The notes below the pieces were generated by a model, which saw only the letters and a program-made list of their open reading frames with translations, was not told the origin of the DNA and did no database searches. From NCBI RefSeq assembly GCF_044324785.1, contig NZ_CP172127.1: 64,000 bases of DNA; one strand, 5' to 3'. This stretch comes from Escherichia coli. Its GTDB lineage: Bacteria; Pseudomonadota; Gammaproteobacteria; Enterobacterales; Enterobacteriaceae. The translations under genes were made by a program, and so were the position numbers. The stretch's first letter is position 1. The number at the start of each line of letters is the position of its first letter. Shown here in pieces: positions 16,532 to 41,828 of this stretch.

Positions 16532-16707
16532 TCGCTAAATAATAGAGCAACCTTTAATAATCTTCTGCTGAATAAAGATTATCTCATATATTAATTTTAT
16601 GAGATTTTTTTAGGATTATATCAAGGAGAAGAAACGAACTTATTAAGCTAGAATAGCTGCGGGTGCTTGAGACTGTTTGTCTCAGGTATTCACCGAAAGG
16701 CAGACAG

Positions 16708-16775
16708 AGAAAAGCCCCACCTGACTATAAATCAAAGTGAGGCTACCCTATGCCTGAACACCATAAGGTTAGCCT
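16708..16775 (-). ncRNA. sokA: putative Sok-type antisense RNA of the hokA locus (approximate bounds)
   Basis: Inference from hok/sok architecture; minus-strand hairpin with U-tract lies just upstream of the mokA start; exact ends not determinable. Confidence 0.35.
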
Positions 16776-16962
16776 CTTACTCGTTGGAAATCAACACAGG
16801 AGGCTGGGAATGCCGCAGAAATATAGATTGCTTTCTTTAATAGTGATTTGTTTCACGCTTTTATTTTTCACCTGGATGATAAGAGATTCACTGTGCGAAT
16901 TGCATATTAAACAGGGGAGTTATGAGCTGGCGGCATTTTTAGCCTGCAATTTGAAAGAGTAA
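16750..16962 (+). CDS. mokA: Mok-type overlapping reading frame (translational coupling frame for hokA)
   Basis: 70-aa ORF in the same frame as hokA starting 60 nt upstream, as in other hok/mok loci. Confidence 0.6.
   Translation: MPEHHKVSLLLVGNQHRRLGMPQKYRLLSLIVICFTLLFFTWMIRDSLCELHIKQGSYELAAFLACNLKE
16810..16962 (+). CDS. hokA: Hok-family type I toxin, small membrane peptide (50 aa)
   Basis: MPQKYRLLSLIVICFTLLFFTWMIRDSLCELHIKQGSYELAAFLACNLKE; AGGAGG 7 nt upstream of the ATG. Confidence 0.85.
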   Translation: MPQKYRLLSLIVICFTLLFFTWMIRDSLCELHIKQGSYELAAFLACNLKE

Positions 16963-17117: not shown

Positions 17118-17489
17118 ATGAATAAACTGCTTTTACTGTTGATAATGCTCTATCAACGACATCTTTCTCCTCGCAAAGGATACCGCTGTGCTTACAGTGT
17201 GTTGTACCAAACGCAGGGATGTTCGGGAGCAGTCAAAGAGATTATTCAACAGAAAGGTGTTATTGCAGGCTGGGGCGAGATACGTCAGCGTTTTGCAGAT
17301 TGCCGACTTGCGGCACTGACAATCAGGCAGAAGCAACACCTGAACGAGGTAATACGTAAAAAGAAGAATAATAATTGTGATTGTTCCGGGTGCGATGGTG
17401 CGGTCTGTCGTGATTGCGACATTCCGGTGCCGGATCTGGATTGTTCCTGGGACTGTTCTTCTCTACATATAAAGCGGTTTTTCCAATAA
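17118..17489 (+). CDS. hypothetical Cys-rich protein; N-terminus loosely resembles the YidD/DUF37 signature, C-terminus has CxC/CxxC clusters
   Basis: 123-aa ORF; GGAG 6 nt upstream of ATG; motif LYQRHLSPRKGYRC resembles the YidD YQRxISP...CR pattern; identity not confirmed. Confidence 0.45.
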   Translation: MNKLLLLLIMLYQRHLSPRKGYRCAYSVLYQTQGCSGAVKEIIQQKGVIAGWGEIRQRFADCRLAALTIRQKQHLNEVIRKKKNNNCDCSGCDGAVCRDCDIPVPDLDCSWDCSSLHIKRFFQ

Positions 17490-17520
17490 AAAAATCCCCG
17501 CCAAATGGCAGGGATCTTAG
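17490..17520 (-). terminator. cspA rho-independent terminator
   Basis: Minus-strand hairpin ccctgcc / ggcgggg (one G-U pair) followed by U-tract immediately after cspA stop. Confidence 0.6.
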
Positions 17521-17542
17521 ATTCTGTGCTTTTAAGCAGAGA

Positions 17543-17755
17543 TTACAGGCTGGTTACGTTGCCAGCTGCCGGGCCTTTAGCGCCGCTTTCGATGGTGAAG
17601 GACACTTTCTGACCTTCGTCCAGAGATTTGTAACCATCGTTCTGGATAGCAGAGAAGTGTACGAACACGTCTTTAGAGCCATCGTCAGGAGTGATGAAGC
17701 CGAAGCCTTTGTCAGCGTTGAACCATTTTACGATACCAGTCATTTTACCGGACAT
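17543..17755 (-). CDS. cspA: major cold shock protein CspA
   Basis: 70 aa [38 protein letters not shown]..., canonical CspA. Confidence 0.98.
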
Positions 17756-17915
17756 AGTGTATTACCTTTAATAATTAATTGTGCCTTTCGGCGATATGGC
17801 GTGCTTTACAGATTTTTGAAGCGTTAAAGGAAATGCACTACGAGGGGTATCAACGATAACTCTTGAAGAGGACTTGCCTTACTACACTGCTTTAATGGTC
17901 TGTACGTCAAACCGT
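17756..17915 (-). promoter_or_regulatory. cspA long 5' untranslated leader including the cold-box element (UGACGUACAGA, complement of 17899-17909)
   Basis: Reverse complement of 17901-17915 reads ACGGTTTGACGTACA, matching the recalled 5' end of cspA mRNA; leader is about 160 nt. Confidence 0.7.
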
Positions 17916-18035
17916 TGAGTGCATTAAGCCACGCATTGGCGGGTGATGCAACAATTATTTTTCATATTTATGATTAATCGGTTGGAAAACGGTCCTGTCA
18001 TCAGGACCGTAAACAGCAATAAAGTGGATAAAAGT

Positions 18036-29111: not shown

Positions 29112-29444
<333 letters not shown>

Positions 29445-29446
29445 AC

Positions 29447-29482
29447 GTAGGCCTGATAAGACGCGCCAGCGTCGCATCAGGC
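29447..29482. repeat. REP (repetitive extragenic palindromic) element
   Basis: gtaggcctgataagacgcgccagcgtcgcatcaggc matches the classical E. coli REP consensus. Confidence 0.8.
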
Positions 29483-30067
29483 AAATGTGCCGGCCCATTG
29501 TCGGATGCGGCGTGAACACCTTATTCGACCTACACACCACACATTTCCCTGCCAAATTTGCGCCCCATATCTCACTATCCATTAACGGATTTGTGACAGA
29601 AACCATTGTCTTTTTTTATATTTGCTTAAATCTTTTTTTGCGTTACTTATGGATGGCGCTGGCATTTTCCCCTGTGCGTTTTAGCGTTCATGGTATTAAT
29701 CGCTCAGATATCCACCTTTTCCTCAGATTTTTTTCACTAAATGCATAAAACTTAATCACCAATTGTTGCTAAATATTAAGCTGATTGTTCTGGTCATGTT
29801 GGAGTAGCACAAATTTCTCTGCTGCAAATAGCTGTTTGAAGTTTTTTTAATCTTTGTTTGTGGATTCTCACCGTTGGTGTAAATCCCGGTTGGCTGTATT
29901 GACGTTTTCACATTCTGTTGACAGATTGTAGGTCACGAGGGGCATTTTATGGAGGATCCGCACTGTTACACTGATGTTAATTAGTACGGCATCCCCACCT
30001 CATAACGTTGACCCGACCGGGCAAAAAACAAAAAAGGTCAGGCAGCGACAACCCACTGCAAAGGGTT

Positions 30068-31743: not shown

Positions 31744-31842
31744 GCCTGATGCGCTCCGCTTATCAGGCCTACGAAAACTCTGCAATGTATTGAGTTTGCA
31801 CGATTTTGTAGGTCGGATAAGGCGTTTGCGCCGCATCCGGCA
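31744..31842. repeat. BIME: two REP elements in the dppA-dppB intergenic region
   Basis: gcctgatgcgctccgcttatcaggcctac (31744-31772) and gtaggtcggataaggcgtttgcgccgcatccggca (31808-31842). Confidence 0.8.
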
Positions 31843-34939: not shown

Positions 34940-35940
34940 GTACGCAAGAGGCCACCTCGCAACAACCGCTGTTGCAGGCTATCGACCTGAAAAAACATTA
35001 TCCGGTGAAGAAAGGTATGTTCGCGCCGGAACGTCTGGTGAAGGCGCTGGACGGCGTTTCGTTTAACCTTGAACGCGGCAAAACGCTGGCGGTAGTAGGG
35101 GAATCTGGCTGCGGTAAATCGACCCTCGGTCGGTTGCTGACGATGATCGAAACGCCCACCGGTGGTGAACTGTATTACCAGGGGCAGGATCTGCTCAAGC
35201 ACGATCCGCAGGCGCAGAAGCTGCGTCGGCAGAAAATCCAGATTGTCTTCCAGAACCCTTACGGTTCGCTGAATCCACGTAAAAAAGTCGGGCAAATTCT
35301 TGAGGAGCCGCTGCTGATTAATACCAGCTTAAGCAAAGAACAGCGTCGGGAAAAAGCCCTGTCGATGATGGCGAAAGTCGGCCTGAAAACCGAACATTAT
35401 GACCGCTATCCGCATATGTTCTCCGGCGGACAACGTCAGCGTATCGCCATCGCCCGTGGTCTGATGCTCGACCCGGACGTGGTGATTGCCGATGAGCCGG
35501 TCTCCGCGCTGGACGTCTCAGTGCGTGCGCAGGTGCTCAACCTGATGATGGATTTGCAGCAGGAGTTGGGGCTTTCTTATGTCTTTATTTCCCACGACCT
35601 GTCGGTTGTGGAGCACATTGCTGATGAAGTGATGGTGATGTACCTGGGCCGCTGCGTGGAGAAGGGAACGAAGGACCAAATCTTCAATAACCCGCGTCAT
35701 CCGTACACTCAGGCGCTACTCTCCGCGACGCCGCGCCTGAACCCGGACGATCGCCGCGAGCGCATTAAGCTCACCGGTGAACTGCCAAGCCCGCTCAATC
35801 CACCGCCGGGCTGTGCCTTCAACGCTCGCTGTCGTCGACGCTTCGGTCCCTGCACCCAGTTGCAGCCGCAGCTAAAAGACTACGGCGGTCAACTGGTAGC
35901 CTGCTTTGCTGTTGATCAGGATGAAAATCCGCAGCGTTAA
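34936..35940 (+). CDS. dppF: dipeptide ABC transporter ATP-binding protein DppF
   Basis: 334-aa ORF, Walker [10 protein letters not shown]; 4-nt overlap with dppD. Confidence 0.95.
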
Positions 35941-35969
35941 CTCATAAAACCGGGGCCGTGCGCTCCGGT

Positions 35970-37241
35970 TTACTCAATCAGCTTCAACAGTGGCGACAAG
36001 CATAGCAAAATGCCGTAAAGCAGAATCAGCCAGGCTTTAAATCCGCGAAGTTTTTCCAGTTGTGCGACTTTATAGATCAGGAAAAATGGAATGAGGCACG
36101 ACACAATGCCATATAACGGACTTCCCAACTGAAAGAACACCAGCACCGATACACGAAACGAAACCCAAATCGTCAACGTAATGACGATAAAAGCGCAGAT
36201 CGCCAGAGTCAGCACGTGTGAGTTAATTTTCTTGGTATCAATAATTCGGCTTAACAGATTGAGAATAATGCCTTTAATGGCCTCGTGGAAACCGAGATAA
36301 ATGCCAAAGAATGCGGTCAGTACGGCAAAGATATTCAGCACCGTAGAGGTGATATGAATGATATGCCCAGGGATCACCTGCGCGGCCAGTGCCAGTGCCG
36401 AGATATTTTGTTCAAAGGCAGAAACGGCTTCTTCGTGGCTAATTGAGAAGGTAAACGAAAAGGCAAAAAACAGTATCACCGCGATGAGCGTGATATAACT
36501 AATTCGGTGGGTACGCAGCGCGAGCCGGGTTGCCAGTACTTTATCCGCTTCCCGTTTACGATAGGCAATATTCATTGGGTTAAGTACCTGAATAAATACT
36601 GCAGAAAAGAAGCAAAATGGAATGGTAAGCAGGACATCGCGGAAAAAGACGGAGGCTTGCGGGAAGGCGGTTATATTGGCGAAATTCCAGTGCGGGATCA
36701 TCGCAAAACCGAACACGACAATAATCCCTACTTTGACCACCACCATTGGCCCGGAAATCTTAAACAGTAATCGTTCACCACCAGACGCAATCGCCACCAG
36801 TACGGCGAAAATAGCGACTTTATAAAGTAGAGATTGTGAAAGATCGGCATCGGTTAAACCGAAGGTTTTCAGGTACGAGGCGCTGTCGAAAACCACGGAG
36901 AGAGAGTAGATAAAAATCCCGTGGATAATCATCAAAAAGTAGATAACCCCGAGGAAAATTCCCCAGTTCTTCCCCAGGTAATGACTGATAATATCGGTGT
37001 AGTCATTACAGGAATCGCTTTCAGAAAGGGTTTTTAAATAAATATCCTGCACTACCCAGGTGGCAGGATAAGCAATGATCGCTGCGGTAATAAATACCCA
37101 AATTCCCTTCAAGCCAATTTGTACTGGCATCAGCACGGTTCCGGCACCAATCGCCATGCCTATACATAATAAAACCCAGCCGAAGTCGTAGCGTGTAAAC
37201 GGCAATTTCTGATCGTGTTTCGGTAGTGTGTTGTGCTGCAT
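35970..37241 (-). CDS. yhjV: putative amino-acid transporter YhjV
   Basis: 423 aa from [34 protein letters not shown]...; six-frame ORF is N-terminally extended. Confidence 0.88.
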
Positions 37242-37596
37242 AAAGTCCTGTCCAGAAAGAAGTCGGCCTCGCAAAAATGAATAAACCCAGTTTCTCTTGC
37301 GCAACAGGTGGAGAAGTCGATACGCAGTATGTAAAAAATGAGGCAATAGATTCACTGGGGAGGTCGCGAGGAGGCGCAATTCTACAAAATTGCGCATTTC
37401 ACTACCAGTCTGGAGTCAGCCCGGATATGAACTGCAACTATTGCAAATAAAGAAATTAAGCTGGAAGGCATCACGCAATGAGGAAGATAGCCGGGTGCTG
37501 ACGGTAAAAAGCAATCGTAAAATCAGCGGCAAGCCGGAAAGGTTCCGGTGAGGCGCAATGTTGCGGGGGCTTAATCCCTGGTGGCATTGGTTGCTG

Positions 37597-37665
37597 GAGA
37601 GAGAAAACCCCCGCACGTTGCAGGTATGCACCTGACAACATCACGGGGGCCATTCTTGAACCTGA
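37597..37665 (-). ncRNA. rdlD: putative Rdl antisense RNA, copy 1 (approximate bounds)
   Basis: Minus-strand hairpin (ggggg...ccccc) with U-tract inside the ldr leader; placement by analogy with K-12 ldrD/rdlD. Confidence 0.35.
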
Positions 37666-37715
37666 ACAACTCAAGAATAGCCGCGAAACGTTGTCATTAC
37701 AACTCAGGCGGCTAT

Positions 37716-37823
37716 ATGACGCTCGCAGAACTGGGCATGGCCTTCTGGCATGATTTAGCGGCTCCGGTCATTGCTGGCATTCTTGCCAGCATGATCGTGA
37801 ACTGGCTGAATAAGCGGAAGTAA
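37716..37823 (+). CDS. ldrD: Ldr-family type I toxin peptide (35 aa), copy 1
   Basis: MTLAELGMAFWHDLAAPVIAGILASMIVNWLNKRK. Confidence 0.85.
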   Translation: MTLAELGMAFWHDLAAPVIAGILASMIVNWLNKRK

Positions 37824-37876
37824 CGTGTCAGACGGGCGTCAGGCTGCCGTAATGGCAAGTTGCGCCCGGATCAGAC

Positions 37877-37908
37877 CGCAGGGATAAAACTCTGCGGCCT
37901 TTTTCGTA
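37877..37908 (+). terminator. terminator of ldr copy 1
   Basis: ccgcag...ctgcgg hairpin followed by CCTTTTTCGT. Confidence 0.65.
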
Positions 37909-38079
37909 AGAAAAATGCAACGGTTGCAAGCGGATAATATTCTGCGGAATGCGCAGCACAGAGTGAAGACGTGACGGATTCCGGAACAGAAAAACAGTCG
38001 TAGAATCAGCGGCAAGCCGGAAAGGTTCCGGTGAGGCGCAATGTTGCGGGGGCTTAATCCCTGGTGGCATTGGTTGCTG

Positions 38080-38148
38080 GAGAGAGAAAACCCCCGCACG
38101 TTGCAGGTATGCACCTGACAACACCACGGGGGCCATTCTTGCATCCAA
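38080..38148 (-). ncRNA. putative Rdl antisense RNA, copy 2 (approximate bounds)
   Basis: Same structure as copy 1, shifted by 483 nt. Confidence 0.35.
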
Positions 38149-38198
38149 ACAATACAAGAATAGCCGCGAAACGTTGTCATTACAACAGAGGCGGCTAT

Positions 38199-38306
38199 AT
38201 GACGCTCGCAGAACTGGGCATGGCCTTCTGGCATGATTTAGCGGCTCCGGTCATTGCTGGCATTCTTGCCAGTCTGATCGTGAACTGGCTGAACACGCGG
38301 AAGTAA
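38199..38306 (+). CDS. Ldr-family type I toxin peptide (35 aa), copy 2 (variant C-terminus)
   Basis: MTLAELGMAFWHDLAAPVIAGILASLIVNWLNTRK; differs from copy 1 at two residues. Confidence 0.85.
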   Translation: MTLAELGMAFWHDLAAPVIAGILASLIVNWLNTRK

Positions 38307-38392
38307 CGTGTCAGACGGGCGTCAGGCTGCCGTAATGGCAATTTGCGCCCGGACCAGGCCGCAGGGGGAAAACTCTGCGGCCTTTTTCGTTC

Positions 38393-40072
38393 TTATTGCG
38401 GGTAAGGTACCCAGTCGCCGCCATTCAGGCGAACGTACGGTTTATCCTGGTATTGAATAACTACTGCATTTGAGTTCTCGGAGACCGGTGCTGTTTGTGG
38501 CAACCCACTGGTGAGTTTTTTCCAGTCAACATTGTCGTCGGAGAAAATCTTGCCATCAAGAACGCGAACCACCAGATCGGAGATAGCCAGGAAGCTGCTC
38601 GGTTGGTCGATGACAATCGGTGCCCCCTGATGTGGTGCCTTCATGCCGAAGAATTTCACCCCAACGGGGACGTCTGTGATAGACGGGCTGGGGATATCAC
38701 GTAGGCCAGATACCTGCATTCTGTCGCCCTTCAGCGCGCCACCGTGTTCCGGCACCACTACCACCATCACTTTACGACCCGATTTCTCCAGTTCAGTAAA
38801 GAAGGCGTCCAGCTCATCAAAGAATTTCTGCGCTCGCGCTTTGTAATCCGCTGTTTTGCTGACGCCCGGATAATGGTTGCCGTCATGCAGTGGAAGCGTG
38901 TTGTAGAACGTGGCACTACGGCTGTTTTTATCTTTTTCGGTAACGTCCAGCCAGCGGTTAAGCACGGCGGTATCGTCATAAACCGGCGAACCATCAAAGC
39001 CCAGCAAAATAACCGGCAGATTTGTTTGATCCATCAATTCGGTCTGCATGCCGCCATTTTCGCGAACTTCTTTCAAAAAACCGCCGAACTGGCCGTTATG
39101 TCCCATCATCAGGTGCTGGGTAAAGCCCAGTTTCGACAGGTTATCAAACAGATAGCAGTCGTTATTTGCCGGTTGATACAGATTAGTGTGCGAAGTCTGC
39201 CCGCAGCTGGCGCGCAGTAAACGGATCGCCGCCGGGCCACTGTAGGAGGTGGCGGAGTTAAAGTTCTTGAACTCAATATCGAAATGCGACCACAGCGGAT
39301 GCGACATCAACCCGGCGGCTTCAATATCCGACCAGGAAAGCGAACAAATATTAATCATCAGTAGTTCAAATGGCTGAGCATCAGCGGGCAGCGAAGACGG
39401 GAAGGTCGATTTACGTTTCGCCTCTGCGTTATAGAAATTATTCAGCCAGGCGTTAAGGTTCGCCGTTGTTGGCGGTGCAGTTTGTGCGGGCATATCACCC
39501 ACTACCGGTGCGCCACCCGTCGCGGCAACGGTTGCCGCTGCGTTACCACCCGTCGTTGTTACAGTGGTCGTCGGTTGACCGGCAGGCCACAAGGAGAAAC
39601 TTGGTCCCGCCAGGGTAAGTACGTTCAGCCATAGCAGAATGGCAACCACAAAAACGGTAATGCGAATCCATTGTGACAGGAATAACCAGGCCACTAATAA
39701 AACAAAAATGGCCCCAATCATCTGCCAGTTAATAAAGCGTGTGACAAGGTCGATTAAATAATCGGTACTGAACCCCGCCACCTGCGAACCCTGGCTCATT
39801 ATGCTTTCCGGGCCAGGCAACCAGGTGTCATGCCAGAACAAAGCAAAGCCGATCGGCAGGGCAATCCAGTGGCGTAAGCGATGCAGGCTGTAGCGCGGAA
39901 TGGGCATCAGCAGAAACGCGGCAAACACCAGATTGAGGAGCGGATGGAAGTTAAGATATCCCGCCCACAACAGGCCGAACTTAACCAGAAAATAGAAGTT
40001 CCAGCCGGAAAGGCCGCGCCAGTATTGCCAGAGGGAAGAAGGCATGGCGGTATTTTGCGTAAATTGAGTCAT
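38393..40072 (-). CDS. bcsG: cellulose biosynthesis protein BcsG (phosphoethanolamine transferase)
   Basis: 559-aa [39 protein letters not shown]... Confidence 0.93.
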
Positions 40073-40260
40073 TTTTTGGTTGCCTTGGCTTTTTCCGTGC
40101 GGCGTAACGTCCCGGCCGGTTTAACATAACGAGGTTTAGCAAAGAACAAACGTAAGGTGTCGCGAATGCGTCGCAAAGAGTGCCGCGCCAGATAGCCCAG
40201 CGGGAAAAATATCAGTGCGCAAACGACAATAATTTCAATGATATCGCTGATGGTCATCAT
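40069..40260 (-). CDS. bcsF: cellulose biosynthesis protein BcsF
   Basis: 63-aa ORF with one TM helix; 4-nt overlaps with bcsE and bcsG. Confidence 0.88.
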
Positions 40261-41828
40261 GATGAGCGCTCCACAGCATCATCTAACAGTCGCATTGGTT
40301 CTGGTATTCGTCGCCAGTGGCGACCATCGTGCTCGGCATTAATGACCGGTTTAGAACTTTGCGTTAAAGGCAGCGGCATGCCCCATTGTTCTGGGGCAAG
40401 CAGGCGCATCTGCACCAGCTCGGCACTGATTTGATCATCTTCAAACCAGACCATACGGTTTGAGAAAATGTCGCCAGTCGGCAATGGGAAAATATGATTC
40501 AACGCGGTATCCAGATCGTTAATCCGACAGAATGAGAGAAACAGCACCAGCCGATTACCGCCAATGGTCATGATATCGCCGGTACGGTTAGGGCGACACA
40601 GCGTCAGGGCTTGTTCAACGCGGATACCCGGTACCGGACGTAGGGCAACCAGAACGCCTTTACCGTGGGCAGGTAATAGAGGGTTATTCATCATGTTGTT
40701 GACGGCATTACAGAACACATCCCACTTCTGGAAACCACGCAGTTTGAGCGGCTGGGTCATTGACAGCAAGGTAGTGATATCTTCCGGCACATAGCGACTA
40801 AATTTCTGCCCTTGCACGCTTTCGATCATCGTCAGACAACGGGAGAGTGGCGCATTCCACGGGATAACCATATTTGCACCGCAGGCCAATAACAAACGTT
40901 CATCGGTGGCGCGCAGGCTAGCGGTATTTTCCCGTACGAGGATTTTCATCGCACTACCGCGCTGGCGACGCAGGGTATGAATGCTGCGGGCCAGTGGCTC
41001 GATTTGCGCATTTTGCTGTAAAGAAAAGACCACCGTCGCCGCCTGAGCGGTACGGGCTTCATTGAACAGGACTTCGTTATTGTTGAACAGTTGCCAGTGT
41101 TCCGATAGCGGCGGCGCACCTTCCAGTACAGCAACATTACTCAGAATGCGTTTTTCGTCGCTGCGTGGTTGGATCTCCGCCTCTTCGCTTTGAACTAAGG
41201 TCCAGATACCCTTTTGTTGCTGAACGCTAAGCTGCTGACGGGCGCTGACCCCTTTTTCGTTGCACCAGAAGGCAATATCCAGCAAATGTTGGTCGCCCTG
41301 AAAACGCAAACTGGCAAGACCAAAAAGTGAACGGTATTCCTCAAGCAACAATGAAAATTGTTTATCGTTATTATTTCCGGGATTAATTACCAAAAGCGAA
41401 CAATGGTTTAACCTGCTCCATTTATTCATTTTATCCAACCATGAGCGAAGCCGCTCGGCAGGAATGTTTTGCCATGCGTTATTTGCGCAAACAAGAATAA
41501 AAAGGTAATTATGGGGATCAATAGAACACTGCAAATCACGGGCCAAATAGTATAGACCTTTTTCATGATTTAGCATTGAAAATAATTTTATTTTTTCCGG
41601 CCCTTGAGAATCATCTAATTGAAAGATTTTCGCCGGATCGCTGTCCATGCTAATGACCGCGACGTGTGCGGTTTCAGCCTGGGATGCAATTGTTTGATTC
41701 GCCAGACTGATAGCATCTTCATGGCGATCGACGTTAAACCACCAGACGCCGCCTGCTGGCATATGTCGCAGCTCATCCCATAATGATGAGATACCGATAG
41801 AGAATACAGGGTCCACAATGTCCCTCAT
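40257..41828 (-). CDS. bcsE: cellulose biosynthesis c-di-GMP-binding protein BcsE
   Basis: 523-aa [23 protein letters not shown]... Confidence 0.93.

What the first reader, a model, noticed from the sequence alone, without database searches (positions are those of the whole stretch)
37515..38390. Tandem duplication of the ldr/rdl type I toxin-antitoxin unit between yhjV and bcsG
Two near-identical ~390-nt units with a ~483-bp period each encode a 35-aa Ldr-type peptide (copy 1 ...ASMIVNWLNKRK, copy 2 ...ASLIVNWLNTRK), an upstream leader with a probable antisense Rdl RNA on the opposite strand, and a terminator. As I recall, K-12 carries a single ldrD/rdlD unit at this locus and tandem copies only at the ldrABC locus, so this strain appears to have amplified the unit here. 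The two peptides have already diverged at two residues.
Basis: partly seen in the sequence, partly recalled or inferred. Interest (0 to 1): 0.5.

Follow-up and report, generated by a model that had tools for sequence, protein, structure and literature searches.

The report
Two-copy ldrD/rdlD toxin-antitoxin array
The window carries two tandem copies of the known ldrD/rdlD small-toxin/antisense-RNA module between yhjV and bcsG; this is one common, inherited allele of a copy-number polymorphism (1 to about 5 copies) already described for E. coli, so it is ordinary.

Summary
Two 393-nt units (37515-37907 and 37998-38390, period 483, 95% identical) each carry a 35-aa Ldr ORF, an Rfam rdlD antisense RNA and terminators.

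K-12 does have one unit here. But the inter-unit spacer occurs in 3304 of 5426 complete E. coli genomes (61%), at 1-4 places each. A 56-genome sample gave about 41% with one unit, 9% with two, 39% with three and 11% with four.

BL21(DE3) was published in 2017 as having three pairs at this locus. RefSeq already annotates both N3 toxins.

The two N3 units are not a fresh duplication:
- They differ at 19 of 393 sites.
- Each is closer to units in other strains than to its neighbour.
- Unit 2's variable segment is identical to one in a divergent Escherichia lineage that also has a two-unit array.
- The same array, 99.6-100% identical, recurs in independent assemblies.

K-12's single unit equals BL21's third unit, so K-12 looks like the reduced state.

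One side observation may be new. Variation among units clusters in the 5' tail of Rdl, with diversity 0.17 against 0.027 elsewhere in the unit. This could make neighbouring modules partly orthogonal.

Verdict: real, well understood, low interest.

The parts
37515..37907 (+). LDR-D-type unit 1 (the complete ldr/rdl module next to yhjV)
   Evidence: It is 393 nt and homologous over its whole length to unit 2. Its closest relative is unit 1 of strain C4, at 4 differences.
37518..37523 (+). Putative -10 box (TAAAAT) of the ldr-1 promoter. Inter-unit homology starts about here, so the -35 region lies in unit-specific upstream DNA.
   Evidence: Read from the sequence. Unit 2 has TAGAAT at 38001-38006. 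This is inferred and was not detected by the consensus scan.
37602..37667 (-). rdl-1 antisense antitoxin RNA (66 nt), opposite the ldr-1 5' UTR
   Evidence: Rfam RF01813 scores 83.7 bits against a gathering score of 50. It folds into a single-stranded 5' tail plus a long terminator hairpin at -32.3 kcal/mol, z -4.2.
37674..37702 (-). Putative rdl-1 promoter: -35 TTGTAA (37702-37697), 17-nt spacer, -10 TATTCT (37679-37674)
   Evidence: Read from the sequence. This stretch is invariant in 38 units from 16 strains. It is inferred; its 8/12 match is below the scan's threshold.
37641..37671 (.). Hypervariable segment of unit 1 (type 2): the Rdl 5' tail and inner loop, plus 4 nt upstream of the Rdl start
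   Evidence: Nucleotide diversity here is 0.169 against 0.027 in the rest of the unit. Only 2 of 20000 column shuffles reach the observed clustering.
37716..37823 (+). ldr-1 ORF, 35 aa plus stop, preceded by the AGGCGG Shine-Dalgarno at 37706-37711
   Evidence: ORF list. RefSeq annotates it as WP_001295224.1, Ldr family toxin. It is the commonest LdrD-type peptide, counted on at least 1000 contigs, where the tool stops counting.
37876..37905 (+). ldr-1 intrinsic terminator
   Evidence: Hairpin with 8 pairs followed by a T run.
37908..37997 (+). 90-nt inter-unit spacer, which carries the -35 region of the ldr-2 promoter
   Evidence: It is exactly 90 nt in all 22 spacers sampled. It is present in 3304 of 5426 complete genomes, at 1-4 places per genome.
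37998..38390 (+). LDR-D-type unit 2 (next to bcsG)
   Evidence: It is 95.2% identical to unit 1. Its closest relative is unit 1 of strain PRO_A, at 10 differences.
38085..38150 (-). rdl-2 antisense antitoxin RNA
   Evidence: Rfam RF01813 scores 81.7 bits. It folds at -30.1 kcal/mol. It differs from rdl-1 at nt 4, 5, 7, 9 and 27.
38124..38154 (.). Hypervariable segment of unit 2 (type 6)
   Evidence: The same type occurs in EC21Z, BL21, cq9 and PRO_A units. The variable stretch is also identical in unit 2 of the divergent Escherichia locus L040.
38199..38306 (+). ldr-2 ORF, 35 aa, M26L and K33T relative to ldr-1
   Evidence: Pfam Ldr_toxin PF13940, E 5e-25, matched over the full length. RefSeq annotates it as WP_116836215.1. 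The exact peptide has been seen on 296 contigs.
38356..38390 (+). ldr-2 intrinsic terminator, ending 2 nt before the bcsG stop codon on the opposite strand
   Evidence: Hairpin with 11 pairs followed by a T run.

Best explanation
The region is a two-unit allele of the LDR-D array, a tandem array of ldrD/rdlD-type type I toxin-antitoxin modules that sits between yhjV and bcsG in Escherichia.

How each unit works, by homology with K-12 ldrD/rdlD:
- Each 393-nt unit is a self-contained module.
- A roughly 375-nt ldr mRNA with a long 5' UTR encodes a 35-aa membrane-active toxic peptide.
- A 66-nt Rdl RNA, made from the opposite strand of that 5' UTR, pairs with the mRNA. This blocks toxin translation and gives an RNase III substrate.

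How the array varies:
- The array is old and predates E. coli.
- Its size varies among strains from 1 to about 5 units. Units share long identical stretches and recombine unequally.
- N3 and its relatives inherited a two-unit version made of two anciently diverged unit types.
- K-12's single unit is a reduced version of such an array.

What is shown here: the anatomy, family membership, population distribution, age of the units and inheritance of this array.

What is inferred from K-12 literature: transcription, toxicity and repression in this strain.
For: Module identity:
- Rfam rdlD matches lie above the gathering score in both units.
- Pfam Ldr_toxin matches at E 5e-25.
- Terminators follow both ORFs and both Rdl genes, and both Rdl RNAs fold as expected.
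- RefSeq annotates both toxins.

Mechanism from literature:
- LdrD overproduction is toxic and RdlD counteracts it. Rdl overlaps the 5' UTR, not the ribosome-binding site (PMC4147584).
- An ldrD-rdlD double-stranded RNA is cut by RNase III (PMC7373196).

Polymorphism:
- Arrays of 1, 2, 3 and 4 units, all with a period of about 483 nt (482-484), occur in complete genomes.
- The spacer is in 61% of 5426 genomes.
- The sample gave 23, 5, 22 and 6 genomes with 1, 2, 3 and 4 units.
- BL21(DE3) is published with three pairs at this locus, against one in K-12 (PMC5435950).

Age:
- Salmonella arizonae has one unit at yhjV-bcsG, and Citrobacter has a unit next to bcsG.
- A divergent Escherichia has two units plus the same spacer.
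- Unit types are shared between strains and with that lineage.

Inheritance: four independent assemblies carry the same array at 99.6-100% identity.

Unequal crossover:
- K-12's unit equals BL21's unit 3.
- L140 has one unit built from unit 1's upstream region and unit 2's body.
Against: - No expression or toxicity data exist for this strain. Promoters are only weak consensus matches, and the scan found none at its threshold.
- Whether the K33T peptide is still toxic is unknown.
- Whether N3's two units derive from a longer array or retain an ancestral two-unit state is not resolved.
- The copy-number percentages rest on a 56-genome sample of a database rich in laboratory and outbreak strains.
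- The spacer count assumes the spacer is specific to this locus. The 39% of genomes without a spacer match agrees with the sample's single-unit share, which fits that assumption.
- L140 is a MEGAHIT metagenome contig and could be a collapsed repeat rather than a real deletion.
Confidence: 0.9

Rival explanations
1. Recent, strain-specific tandem amplification of a single ancestral ldrD/rdlD unit in this strain, followed by divergence at two residues.
For: K-12 and O157:H7 have one unit. The two units are adjacent and 95% identical.
Against: - The 19 differences in 393 nt give 4.8% divergence. This exceeds the third-codon-position diversity of neighbouring bcsG across the species, which is 0.032.
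- Each unit has closer relatives in other strains than in its own array.
- Unit 2's variable segment is identical in a lineage whose bcsG is 12% diverged.
- 61% of genomes have at least two units.
- The same array recurs in other assemblies.
Confidence: 0.03
2. Assembly artefact: false expansion of a single unit in the N3 assembly.
For: Tandem repeats are prone to mis-assembly. One related metagenome contig (L140) shows a single unit.
Against: - The two units differ at 19 sites, so they are not a duplicated read pile.
- Four independent assemblies (L139, L141-L143) have the same two-unit structure at 99.6-100% identity.
- Thousands of complete genomes show 2-5 units with the same period.
Confidence: 0.01
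3. One or both units are decaying relics, with no toxic peptide or no functional antitoxin, carried neutrally. The array would then have no present function.
For: - No deletion phenotype is known for any Fst/Ldr system (PMC7472228).
- Copy number varies freely, from 1 to about 5.
- The K33T change removes a C-terminal positive charge.
- Promoters match the consensus weakly.
Against: - Both ORFs are intact.
- The Rdl stems, the rdl promoter region and about 85 nt of the ldr leader are invariant in 38 units and nearly so in Salmonella and Citrobacter.
- The unit has been kept at this locus since before the Escherichia-Salmonella split.
- The BL21(DE3) transcriptome paper uses the RdlD antisense RNAs at this three-pair locus as its example of sRNA annotation (PMC5435950).
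Confidence: 0.08

Closest known systems
ldrD/rdlD (LDR-D) of E. coli K-12, a type I toxin-antitoxin module (Kawano et al. 2002, as summarised in PMC4147584)
   Same: Same locus (yhjV-bcsG). Same 393-nt unit, 94% identical. The 35-aa peptide differs by one residue in unit 1 (F3L) and three in unit 2. The Rdl RNA matches the Rfam model built on it. The layout is the same, with Rdl opposite the 5' UTR.
   Different: There are two units instead of one. The units carry different sequences in the Rdl 5' tail from K-12's: N3 has types 2 and 6, K-12 has type 1. Unit 2's peptide has K33T.
The three ldrD/rdlD pairs between bcsG and yhjV in E. coli BL21(DE3) (Kim et al. 2017, PMC5435950)
   Same: Same locus, same 483-nt period and same 90-nt spacer. 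BL21 unit 2 has the same variable-segment type as N3 unit 2.
   Different: BL21 has three units in the type order 8-6-1. N3 has two in the order 2-6.
The ldrA/B/C-rdlA/B/C tandem array between chaA and kdsA in K-12
   Same: The same kind of tandem type I toxin-antitoxin array from the same family. Fozo et al. 2010 describe LdrD and LdrB groups that duplicated in the enterobacterial ancestor and then underwent lineage-specific duplications and losses.
   Different: It lies at a different locus and belongs to a different paralogue group. The LdrA peptide is about 60% identical. The N3 inter-unit spacer finds no match in about 39% of genomes, which agrees with the single-unit share of the genome sample that includes K-12 strains. 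The ldrABC spacers therefore appear to be unrelated.
hok/sok and ibs/sib type I toxin-antitoxin systems
   Same: Rdl is thought to act like Sok, by pairing with a long 5' UTR that may carry a leader ORF. The ldr leaders give sub-threshold matches to the Rfam sok model. Sib RNAs discriminate between cognate and non-cognate ibs mRNAs (PMC2943612 abstract). That is the precedent for the specificity reading of the variable segment.
   Different: The toxin families are unrelated. The leader-ORF mechanism is unproven for ldr. Rdl discrimination between units has not been tested.

Membership tests
Ldr/Rdl type I toxin-antitoxin family | A peptide of about 35 aa with a hydrophobic helix, a conserved Trp and a charged C-terminus, matching Pfam Ldr_toxin (PF13940) | tested here: met
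   The unit 2 peptide matches PF13940 at E 5.1e-25 over positions 1-35 of 35. The unit 1 peptide is WP_001295224.1, annotated as an Ldr family toxin. NCBIfam HMMs gave no hit.
Ldr/Rdl type I toxin-antitoxin family | A cis-encoded antisense RNA of about 66 nt matching Rfam rdlD (RF01813) | tested here: met
   Scores of 83.7 and 81.7 bits against a gathering score of 50, covering model positions 1-66 in full, on the strand opposite each ldr.
Ldr/Rdl type I toxin-antitoxin family | [quoted passage not shown] | tested here: met
   rdl-1 spans 37602-37667. The Shine-Dalgarno is at 37706-37711 and the ATG at 37716. Unit 2 has the same offsets.
Ldr/Rdl type I toxin-antitoxin family | A regulatory leader ORF (ldrX) in the 5' UTR, proposed by analogy with mok | tested here: inconclusive
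   An in-frame ATG at 37626 gives an open 65-aa frame in 34 of 38 units. That ATG is lost or followed by a stop in 4 units, and is absent in L040, Salmonella and Citrobacter. The ATG at 37558, which opens a 25-aa ORF, is conserved, but one outgroup unit has a frameshift there. The published ldrX coordinates could not be consulted.
Ldr/Rdl type I toxin-antitoxin family | The peptide is toxic on overexpression and the cognate Rdl relieves toxicity | not testable with these tools
   Shown for K-12 LdrD/RdlD in the literature (PMC4147584). Not tested for the N3 variants.
LDR-D tandem array at yhjV-bcsG | Units repeated head to tail with a period of about 483 nt and a 90-nt spacer between yhjV and bcsG | tested here: met
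   The period is 483 in the window. Ldr ORF starts are 482-484 nt apart in eleven other multi-unit arrays. The spacer is 90 nt in 22 of 22 cases.
LDR-D tandem array at yhjV-bcsG | Both units are transcribed | not testable with these tools
   The BL21(DE3) transcriptome paper annotates RdlD antisense RNAs at its three-pair locus (PMC5435950). There are no data for N3.

The most novel reading that the evidence does not exclude
The sequence differences between units are not random drift.
- They cluster in the single-stranded 5' tail and inner loop of Rdl, and equally in the matching stretch of the ldr 5' UTR.
- They form at least 13 discrete types. The types are shuffled between array positions and strains and are shared with a divergent Escherichia lineage.
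- No sampled array contains two units of the same type.

This would fit selection for partly orthogonal toxin-antitoxin pairs, in which each Rdl preferentially recognises its own ldr mRNA. On that reading the array would be a set of insulated modules rather than redundant copies.

The predicted tail duplex is about -24 kcal/mol for cognate pairs and -8.5 to -10 kcal/mol for the N3 non-cognate pairs.
Probability: 0.3. Interest if true: 0.45.

Novelty: already known. Interest (0 to 1): 0.15.

Why it matters
The finding matters little as it stands. It is a correctly spotted instance of a known, annotated toxin-antitoxin family at a known locus, and its copy-number variation between K-12 and B strains is already published.

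It has two practical uses:
- Anyone using K-12 as the reference for ldrD should know that one copy is the minority, probably reduced, state. About 61% of complete genomes have 2-5 units.
- The concentration of variation in the Rdl recognition tail offers a cheap, testable system for asking how tandem antisense-regulated modules avoid or exploit cross-talk.

Tried and rejected
- **Degenerate pattern scan.** TGGCAYGAYYTNGCNGCNCC over genome contigs was too loose. Only about 16 enterobacterial loci were useful, and E. fergusonii and the E. coli type strain were not retrieved.
- **NCBIfam HMM search.** Neither peptide gave a hit. Pfam was used instead.
- **Short repeat D2.** The 20-nt repeat family (37361-37380 against 37540-37559) was considered as a relic of a third, degenerate unit upstream of unit 1. 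A local alignment of the yhjV-unit 1 intergenic region against the unit scored 20, against a shuffle mean of 18.6 and a maximum of 25. It is chance.
- **In-frame upstream ATG.** The ATG at 37626 was considered as the ldrX leader start. It was rejected as a conserved feature because 4 of 38 units and all outgroups lack it.
- **Kawano papers.** The 2002 papers (PubMed 12123448 and 11939563) are not held in the library. Statements about them come from reviews.
- **Consensus promoter scan.** It found no sigma-70 site at its threshold. The promoters given in the parts list are hand-read and inferred.
- **An error of mine.** An early notebook entry gave the ORF starts as 37718 and 38201. The correct values are 37716 and 38199.

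Full report
**1. What is in the sequence**

The repeat finder returns one two-copy direct-repeat family with spacing 483. Gapped alignment and blastn put the homology at 37515-37907 and 37998-38390. Each unit is 393 nt, the two differ at 19 positions, and a 90-nt non-homologous spacer lies between them at 37908-37997.

Each unit contains the following parts:
- A 35-aa ORF at 37716-37823 and 38199-38306. The two peptides differ by M26L and K33T.
- An Rfam rdlD (RF01813) match on the opposite strand at 37602-37667 and 38085-38150. These score 83.7 and 81.7 bits against a gathering score of 50.
- A terminator-like hairpin after the ORF, plus the Rdl terminator hairpin.

Both Rdl sequences fold into a single-stranded 5' tail followed by a long hairpin, at -32.3 and -30.1 kcal/mol. 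The unit 2 peptide matches Pfam Ldr_toxin over its full length at E 5e-25.

The flanking genes are yhjV and bcsG. The window is 100% identical to E. coli strain N3 (NZ_CP031609.1), where RefSeq already annotates both ORFs as Ldr family toxins.

**2. How common the arrangement is**

I built a query from the two 2.5-kb flanks without the units and searched 5426 complete E. coli genomes. The length of the interval between the flanks then gives the unit number. In a 60-row sample spread over the ranking, 56 rows were interpretable:

| Units | Genomes | Examples |
|---|---|---|
| 1 | 23 | K-12 derivatives, O157:H7, NRG857c |
| 2 | 5 | N3 and four others |
| 3 | 22 | BL21, ATCC 11303 |
| 4 | 6 | |

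As an independent count, I searched the 90-nt inter-unit spacer alone. It matches 3304 of 5426 genomes (61%), at 1 to 4 places each with a median of 2, for 6981 places in total. This implies up to about five units in some genomes. The 39% without a match agrees with the single-unit fraction from the sample.

Annotated examples show Ldr ORFs spaced 482-484 nt apart in arrays of 2, 3 and 4 units.

The literature already records this variation:
- Fozo et al. 2010 describe lineage-specific duplications and losses of Ldr genes. They count between 2 and 10 Ldr/Fst genes in the Shigella genomes of their Table 1 and 4 in E. coli O157:H7 (PMC2887945).

**3. How old the duplication is**

I aligned 38 units from the window and 15 other strains.
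- Within every multi-unit array the units differ at 8-25 of 393 positions. No array has identical or near-identical neighbours.
- Units in different strains can be almost the same. N3 unit 1 is 4 differences from unit 1 of strain C4. K-12's unit is identical, at every variable column, to the third unit of BL21.
- The N3 units differ by 4.8%. Diversity among the same 16 strains is 0.012 in the yhjV-side intergenic region and 0.032 at bcsG third codon positions.

Outgroups give the same picture:
- Salmonella enterica subsp. arizonae has one unit between yhjV and bcsG.
- Citrobacter sp. R56 has one unit next to bcsG.
- An E. albertii contig ends inside a unit next to bcsG.
- A divergent Escherichia genome labelled E. 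coli (L040; bcsG 88% and yhjV 92.5% nucleotide identity to N3) has two tandem units with period 482 and a homologous spacer.

The variable stretch of L040's unit next to bcsG is identical to that of N3 unit 2. Its other unit carries a type also found in E. coli strains C4, PRO_A and M25631H.

The module is therefore ancestral at this locus. The tandem array predates E. coli, and the unit types are long-lived paralogues.

**4. Inheritance and turnover**

The exact unit 2 peptide (M26L, K33T) has been seen on 296 contigs. Of the contigs read, four independent assemblies carry the same two-unit array, 99.6-100% identical to the window over 5.1 kb. This excludes an assembly artefact in N3 and shows that the array is inherited in a lineage.

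One metagenome contig of the same lineage (L140) has a single unit. That unit is made of unit 1's upstream region joined to unit 2's body, with the junction inside the stretch of about 117 nt that is identical between the units. This is what unequal crossing-over would produce. It is also what a collapsed assembly would produce, so I count it only as consistent.

K-12 compared with BL21 is the cleaner case. The two strains have identical yhjV and bcsG proteins. K-12's unit equals BL21's unit 3, and BL21's units 1 and 2 are types shared with other phylogroups, so they cannot be recent copies of unit 3. K-12 is most simply a 966-bp deletion derivative.

Whether N3's two units come from a longer array or retain an older two-unit state is not resolved.

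**5. Mechanism**

Nothing in the window departs from the K-12 ldrD/rdlD model. These points come from the literature:
- LdrD overproduction kills cells and condenses the nucleoid, and RdlD counteracts it.
- Rdl overlaps the long 5' UTR, not the ribosome-binding site.
- A Sok-like mechanism through a leader ORF (ldrX) has been proposed but not proven (PMC4147584; PMC7472228).
- An ldrD-rdlD duplex cut by RNase III has been detected (PMC7373196).

I read a plausible rdl promoter in a stretch that is invariant in all 38 units: -35 TTGTAA, 17-nt spacer, -10 TATTCT (37702-37674). I also read a -10 box at the very start of each unit, TAAAAT in unit 1 and TAGAAT in unit 2. These promoters are inferred, and the consensus scan found none at its threshold.

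Transcription, toxicity and repression in N3 are inferred, not shown.

**6. A side observation that may be new**

Variation among units is strongly clustered. A 31-nt segment (37641-37671 in unit 1) has nucleotide diversity 0.169, against 0.027 in the rest of the unit and 0.068 in the spacer. Only 2 of 20000 column shuffles reach that clustering.

- The segment covers Rdl nucleotides 1-27 plus 4 nt upstream of the Rdl start.
- The variable positions are Rdl nt 1-8, 14, 16 and 25-26. These fall in the tail or an inner loop, while the stems are invariant.
- There are 13 types among the 38 units. They are shuffled between positions and strains, and all types within any one array differ.
- For the two N3 units the predicted 16-nt tail duplex is -23.7 and -23.6 kcal/mol for the cognate pairs. 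It is -8.5 and -10.2 kcal/mol for the non-cognate pairs.
- Full-length non-cognate duplexes remain very stable, so cross-repression is not excluded.

By analogy with Sok's 5' tail (from my own knowledge) and with Sib/Ibs discrimination (PMC2943612 abstract), this could mean the units are partly orthogonal. The plain alternative is that the tail is simply the least constrained part of ancient paralogues.

I did not find this point in the papers I could read, but I could not read Kawano's two 2002 papers or his 2012 review.

**7. Verdict**

The feature is real and correctly described. It is a member of a known family at a known locus, it is annotated in RefSeq, and multi-copy arrays at this locus are published. 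The claim of strain-specific amplification is not supported. Multi-unit arrays are the majority state, the units are old, and K-12 is the reduced form. I rate the novelty as already known and the interest as low.

Noticed in passing
window 37641-37671 and 38124-38154: Variation among LDR-D units is concentrated in the Rdl 5' tail, with diversity 0.169 against 0.027 in the rest of the unit. There are 13 discrete types in 38 units, and no type occurs twice in one array. Types are shared with a divergent Escherichia lineage, and similar ones occur in Salmonella and Citrobacter.
   Followed up: partly
window 37565-37718 and 38048-38201 (+): Both ldr 5' leaders give sub-threshold matches to the Rfam sok model RF01794 (31 and 30 bits, E about 2e-4, gathering score 59). 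This hints at a hok-like leader fold. T1TAdb reports the same confusion between the Ldr/Rdl and Hok/Sok families.
   Followed up: no
window 37540-37625 (and +483 in unit 2): The ldr leader upstream of the Rdl tail is invariant over about 40 nt in 38 units. Across Salmonella and Citrobacter it is more conserved than the peptide ORF. It holds a conserved ATG at 37558 that opens a 25-aa ORF (MLRGLNPWWHWLLERENPRTLQVCT). The in-frame ATG at 37626 is not conserved.
   Followed up: partly
L140 (ERZ27279538 k141_67581), 2028-2720: This contig is from the same lineage as N3 but has one unit, formed from unit 1's upstream region and unit 2's body. It is either an unequal-crossover deletion or a collapsed metagenome assembly.
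   Followed up: partly
window 37967-37996 (3' third of the 90-nt spacer): Spacer variation sits mostly in the last 30 nt, just upstream of the next unit's -10 box. It falls into two main haplotypes, which might give internal units different promoter strengths.
   Followed up: no
window 35015-40890: Among 5426 complete genomes only N3 itself reaches 99% identity over the 5-kb flanks. The next best reaches 98.3%. The BcsF, BcsG and YhjV proteins carry rare accessions, so N3 belongs to a lineage poorly represented among complete genomes.
   Followed up: no
window 16661-16812 (+) and 17488-17916 (-): A second type I toxin-antitoxin locus lies in the window. The Rfam sok model matches at 124 bits, presumably a chromosomal hok/sok copy. 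It sits next to the cspA 5' UTR thermoregulator, which matches at 482 bits.
   Followed up: no
window 29112-29530 and 31765-31807: A tRNA is followed by an RtT element. A naRNA4 match and an ES036 sRNA match lie on the minus strand.
   Followed up: no
H63, H67, H97 and H40 (other genomes): Some strains have IS1 inserted in bcsE or bcsG next to the array. One strain has an insertion of about 2.8 kb near the array that includes a HipA-family toxin gene. An Ldr-family gene with 81% nucleotide identity occurs on a 195-kb plasmid record.
   Followed up: no
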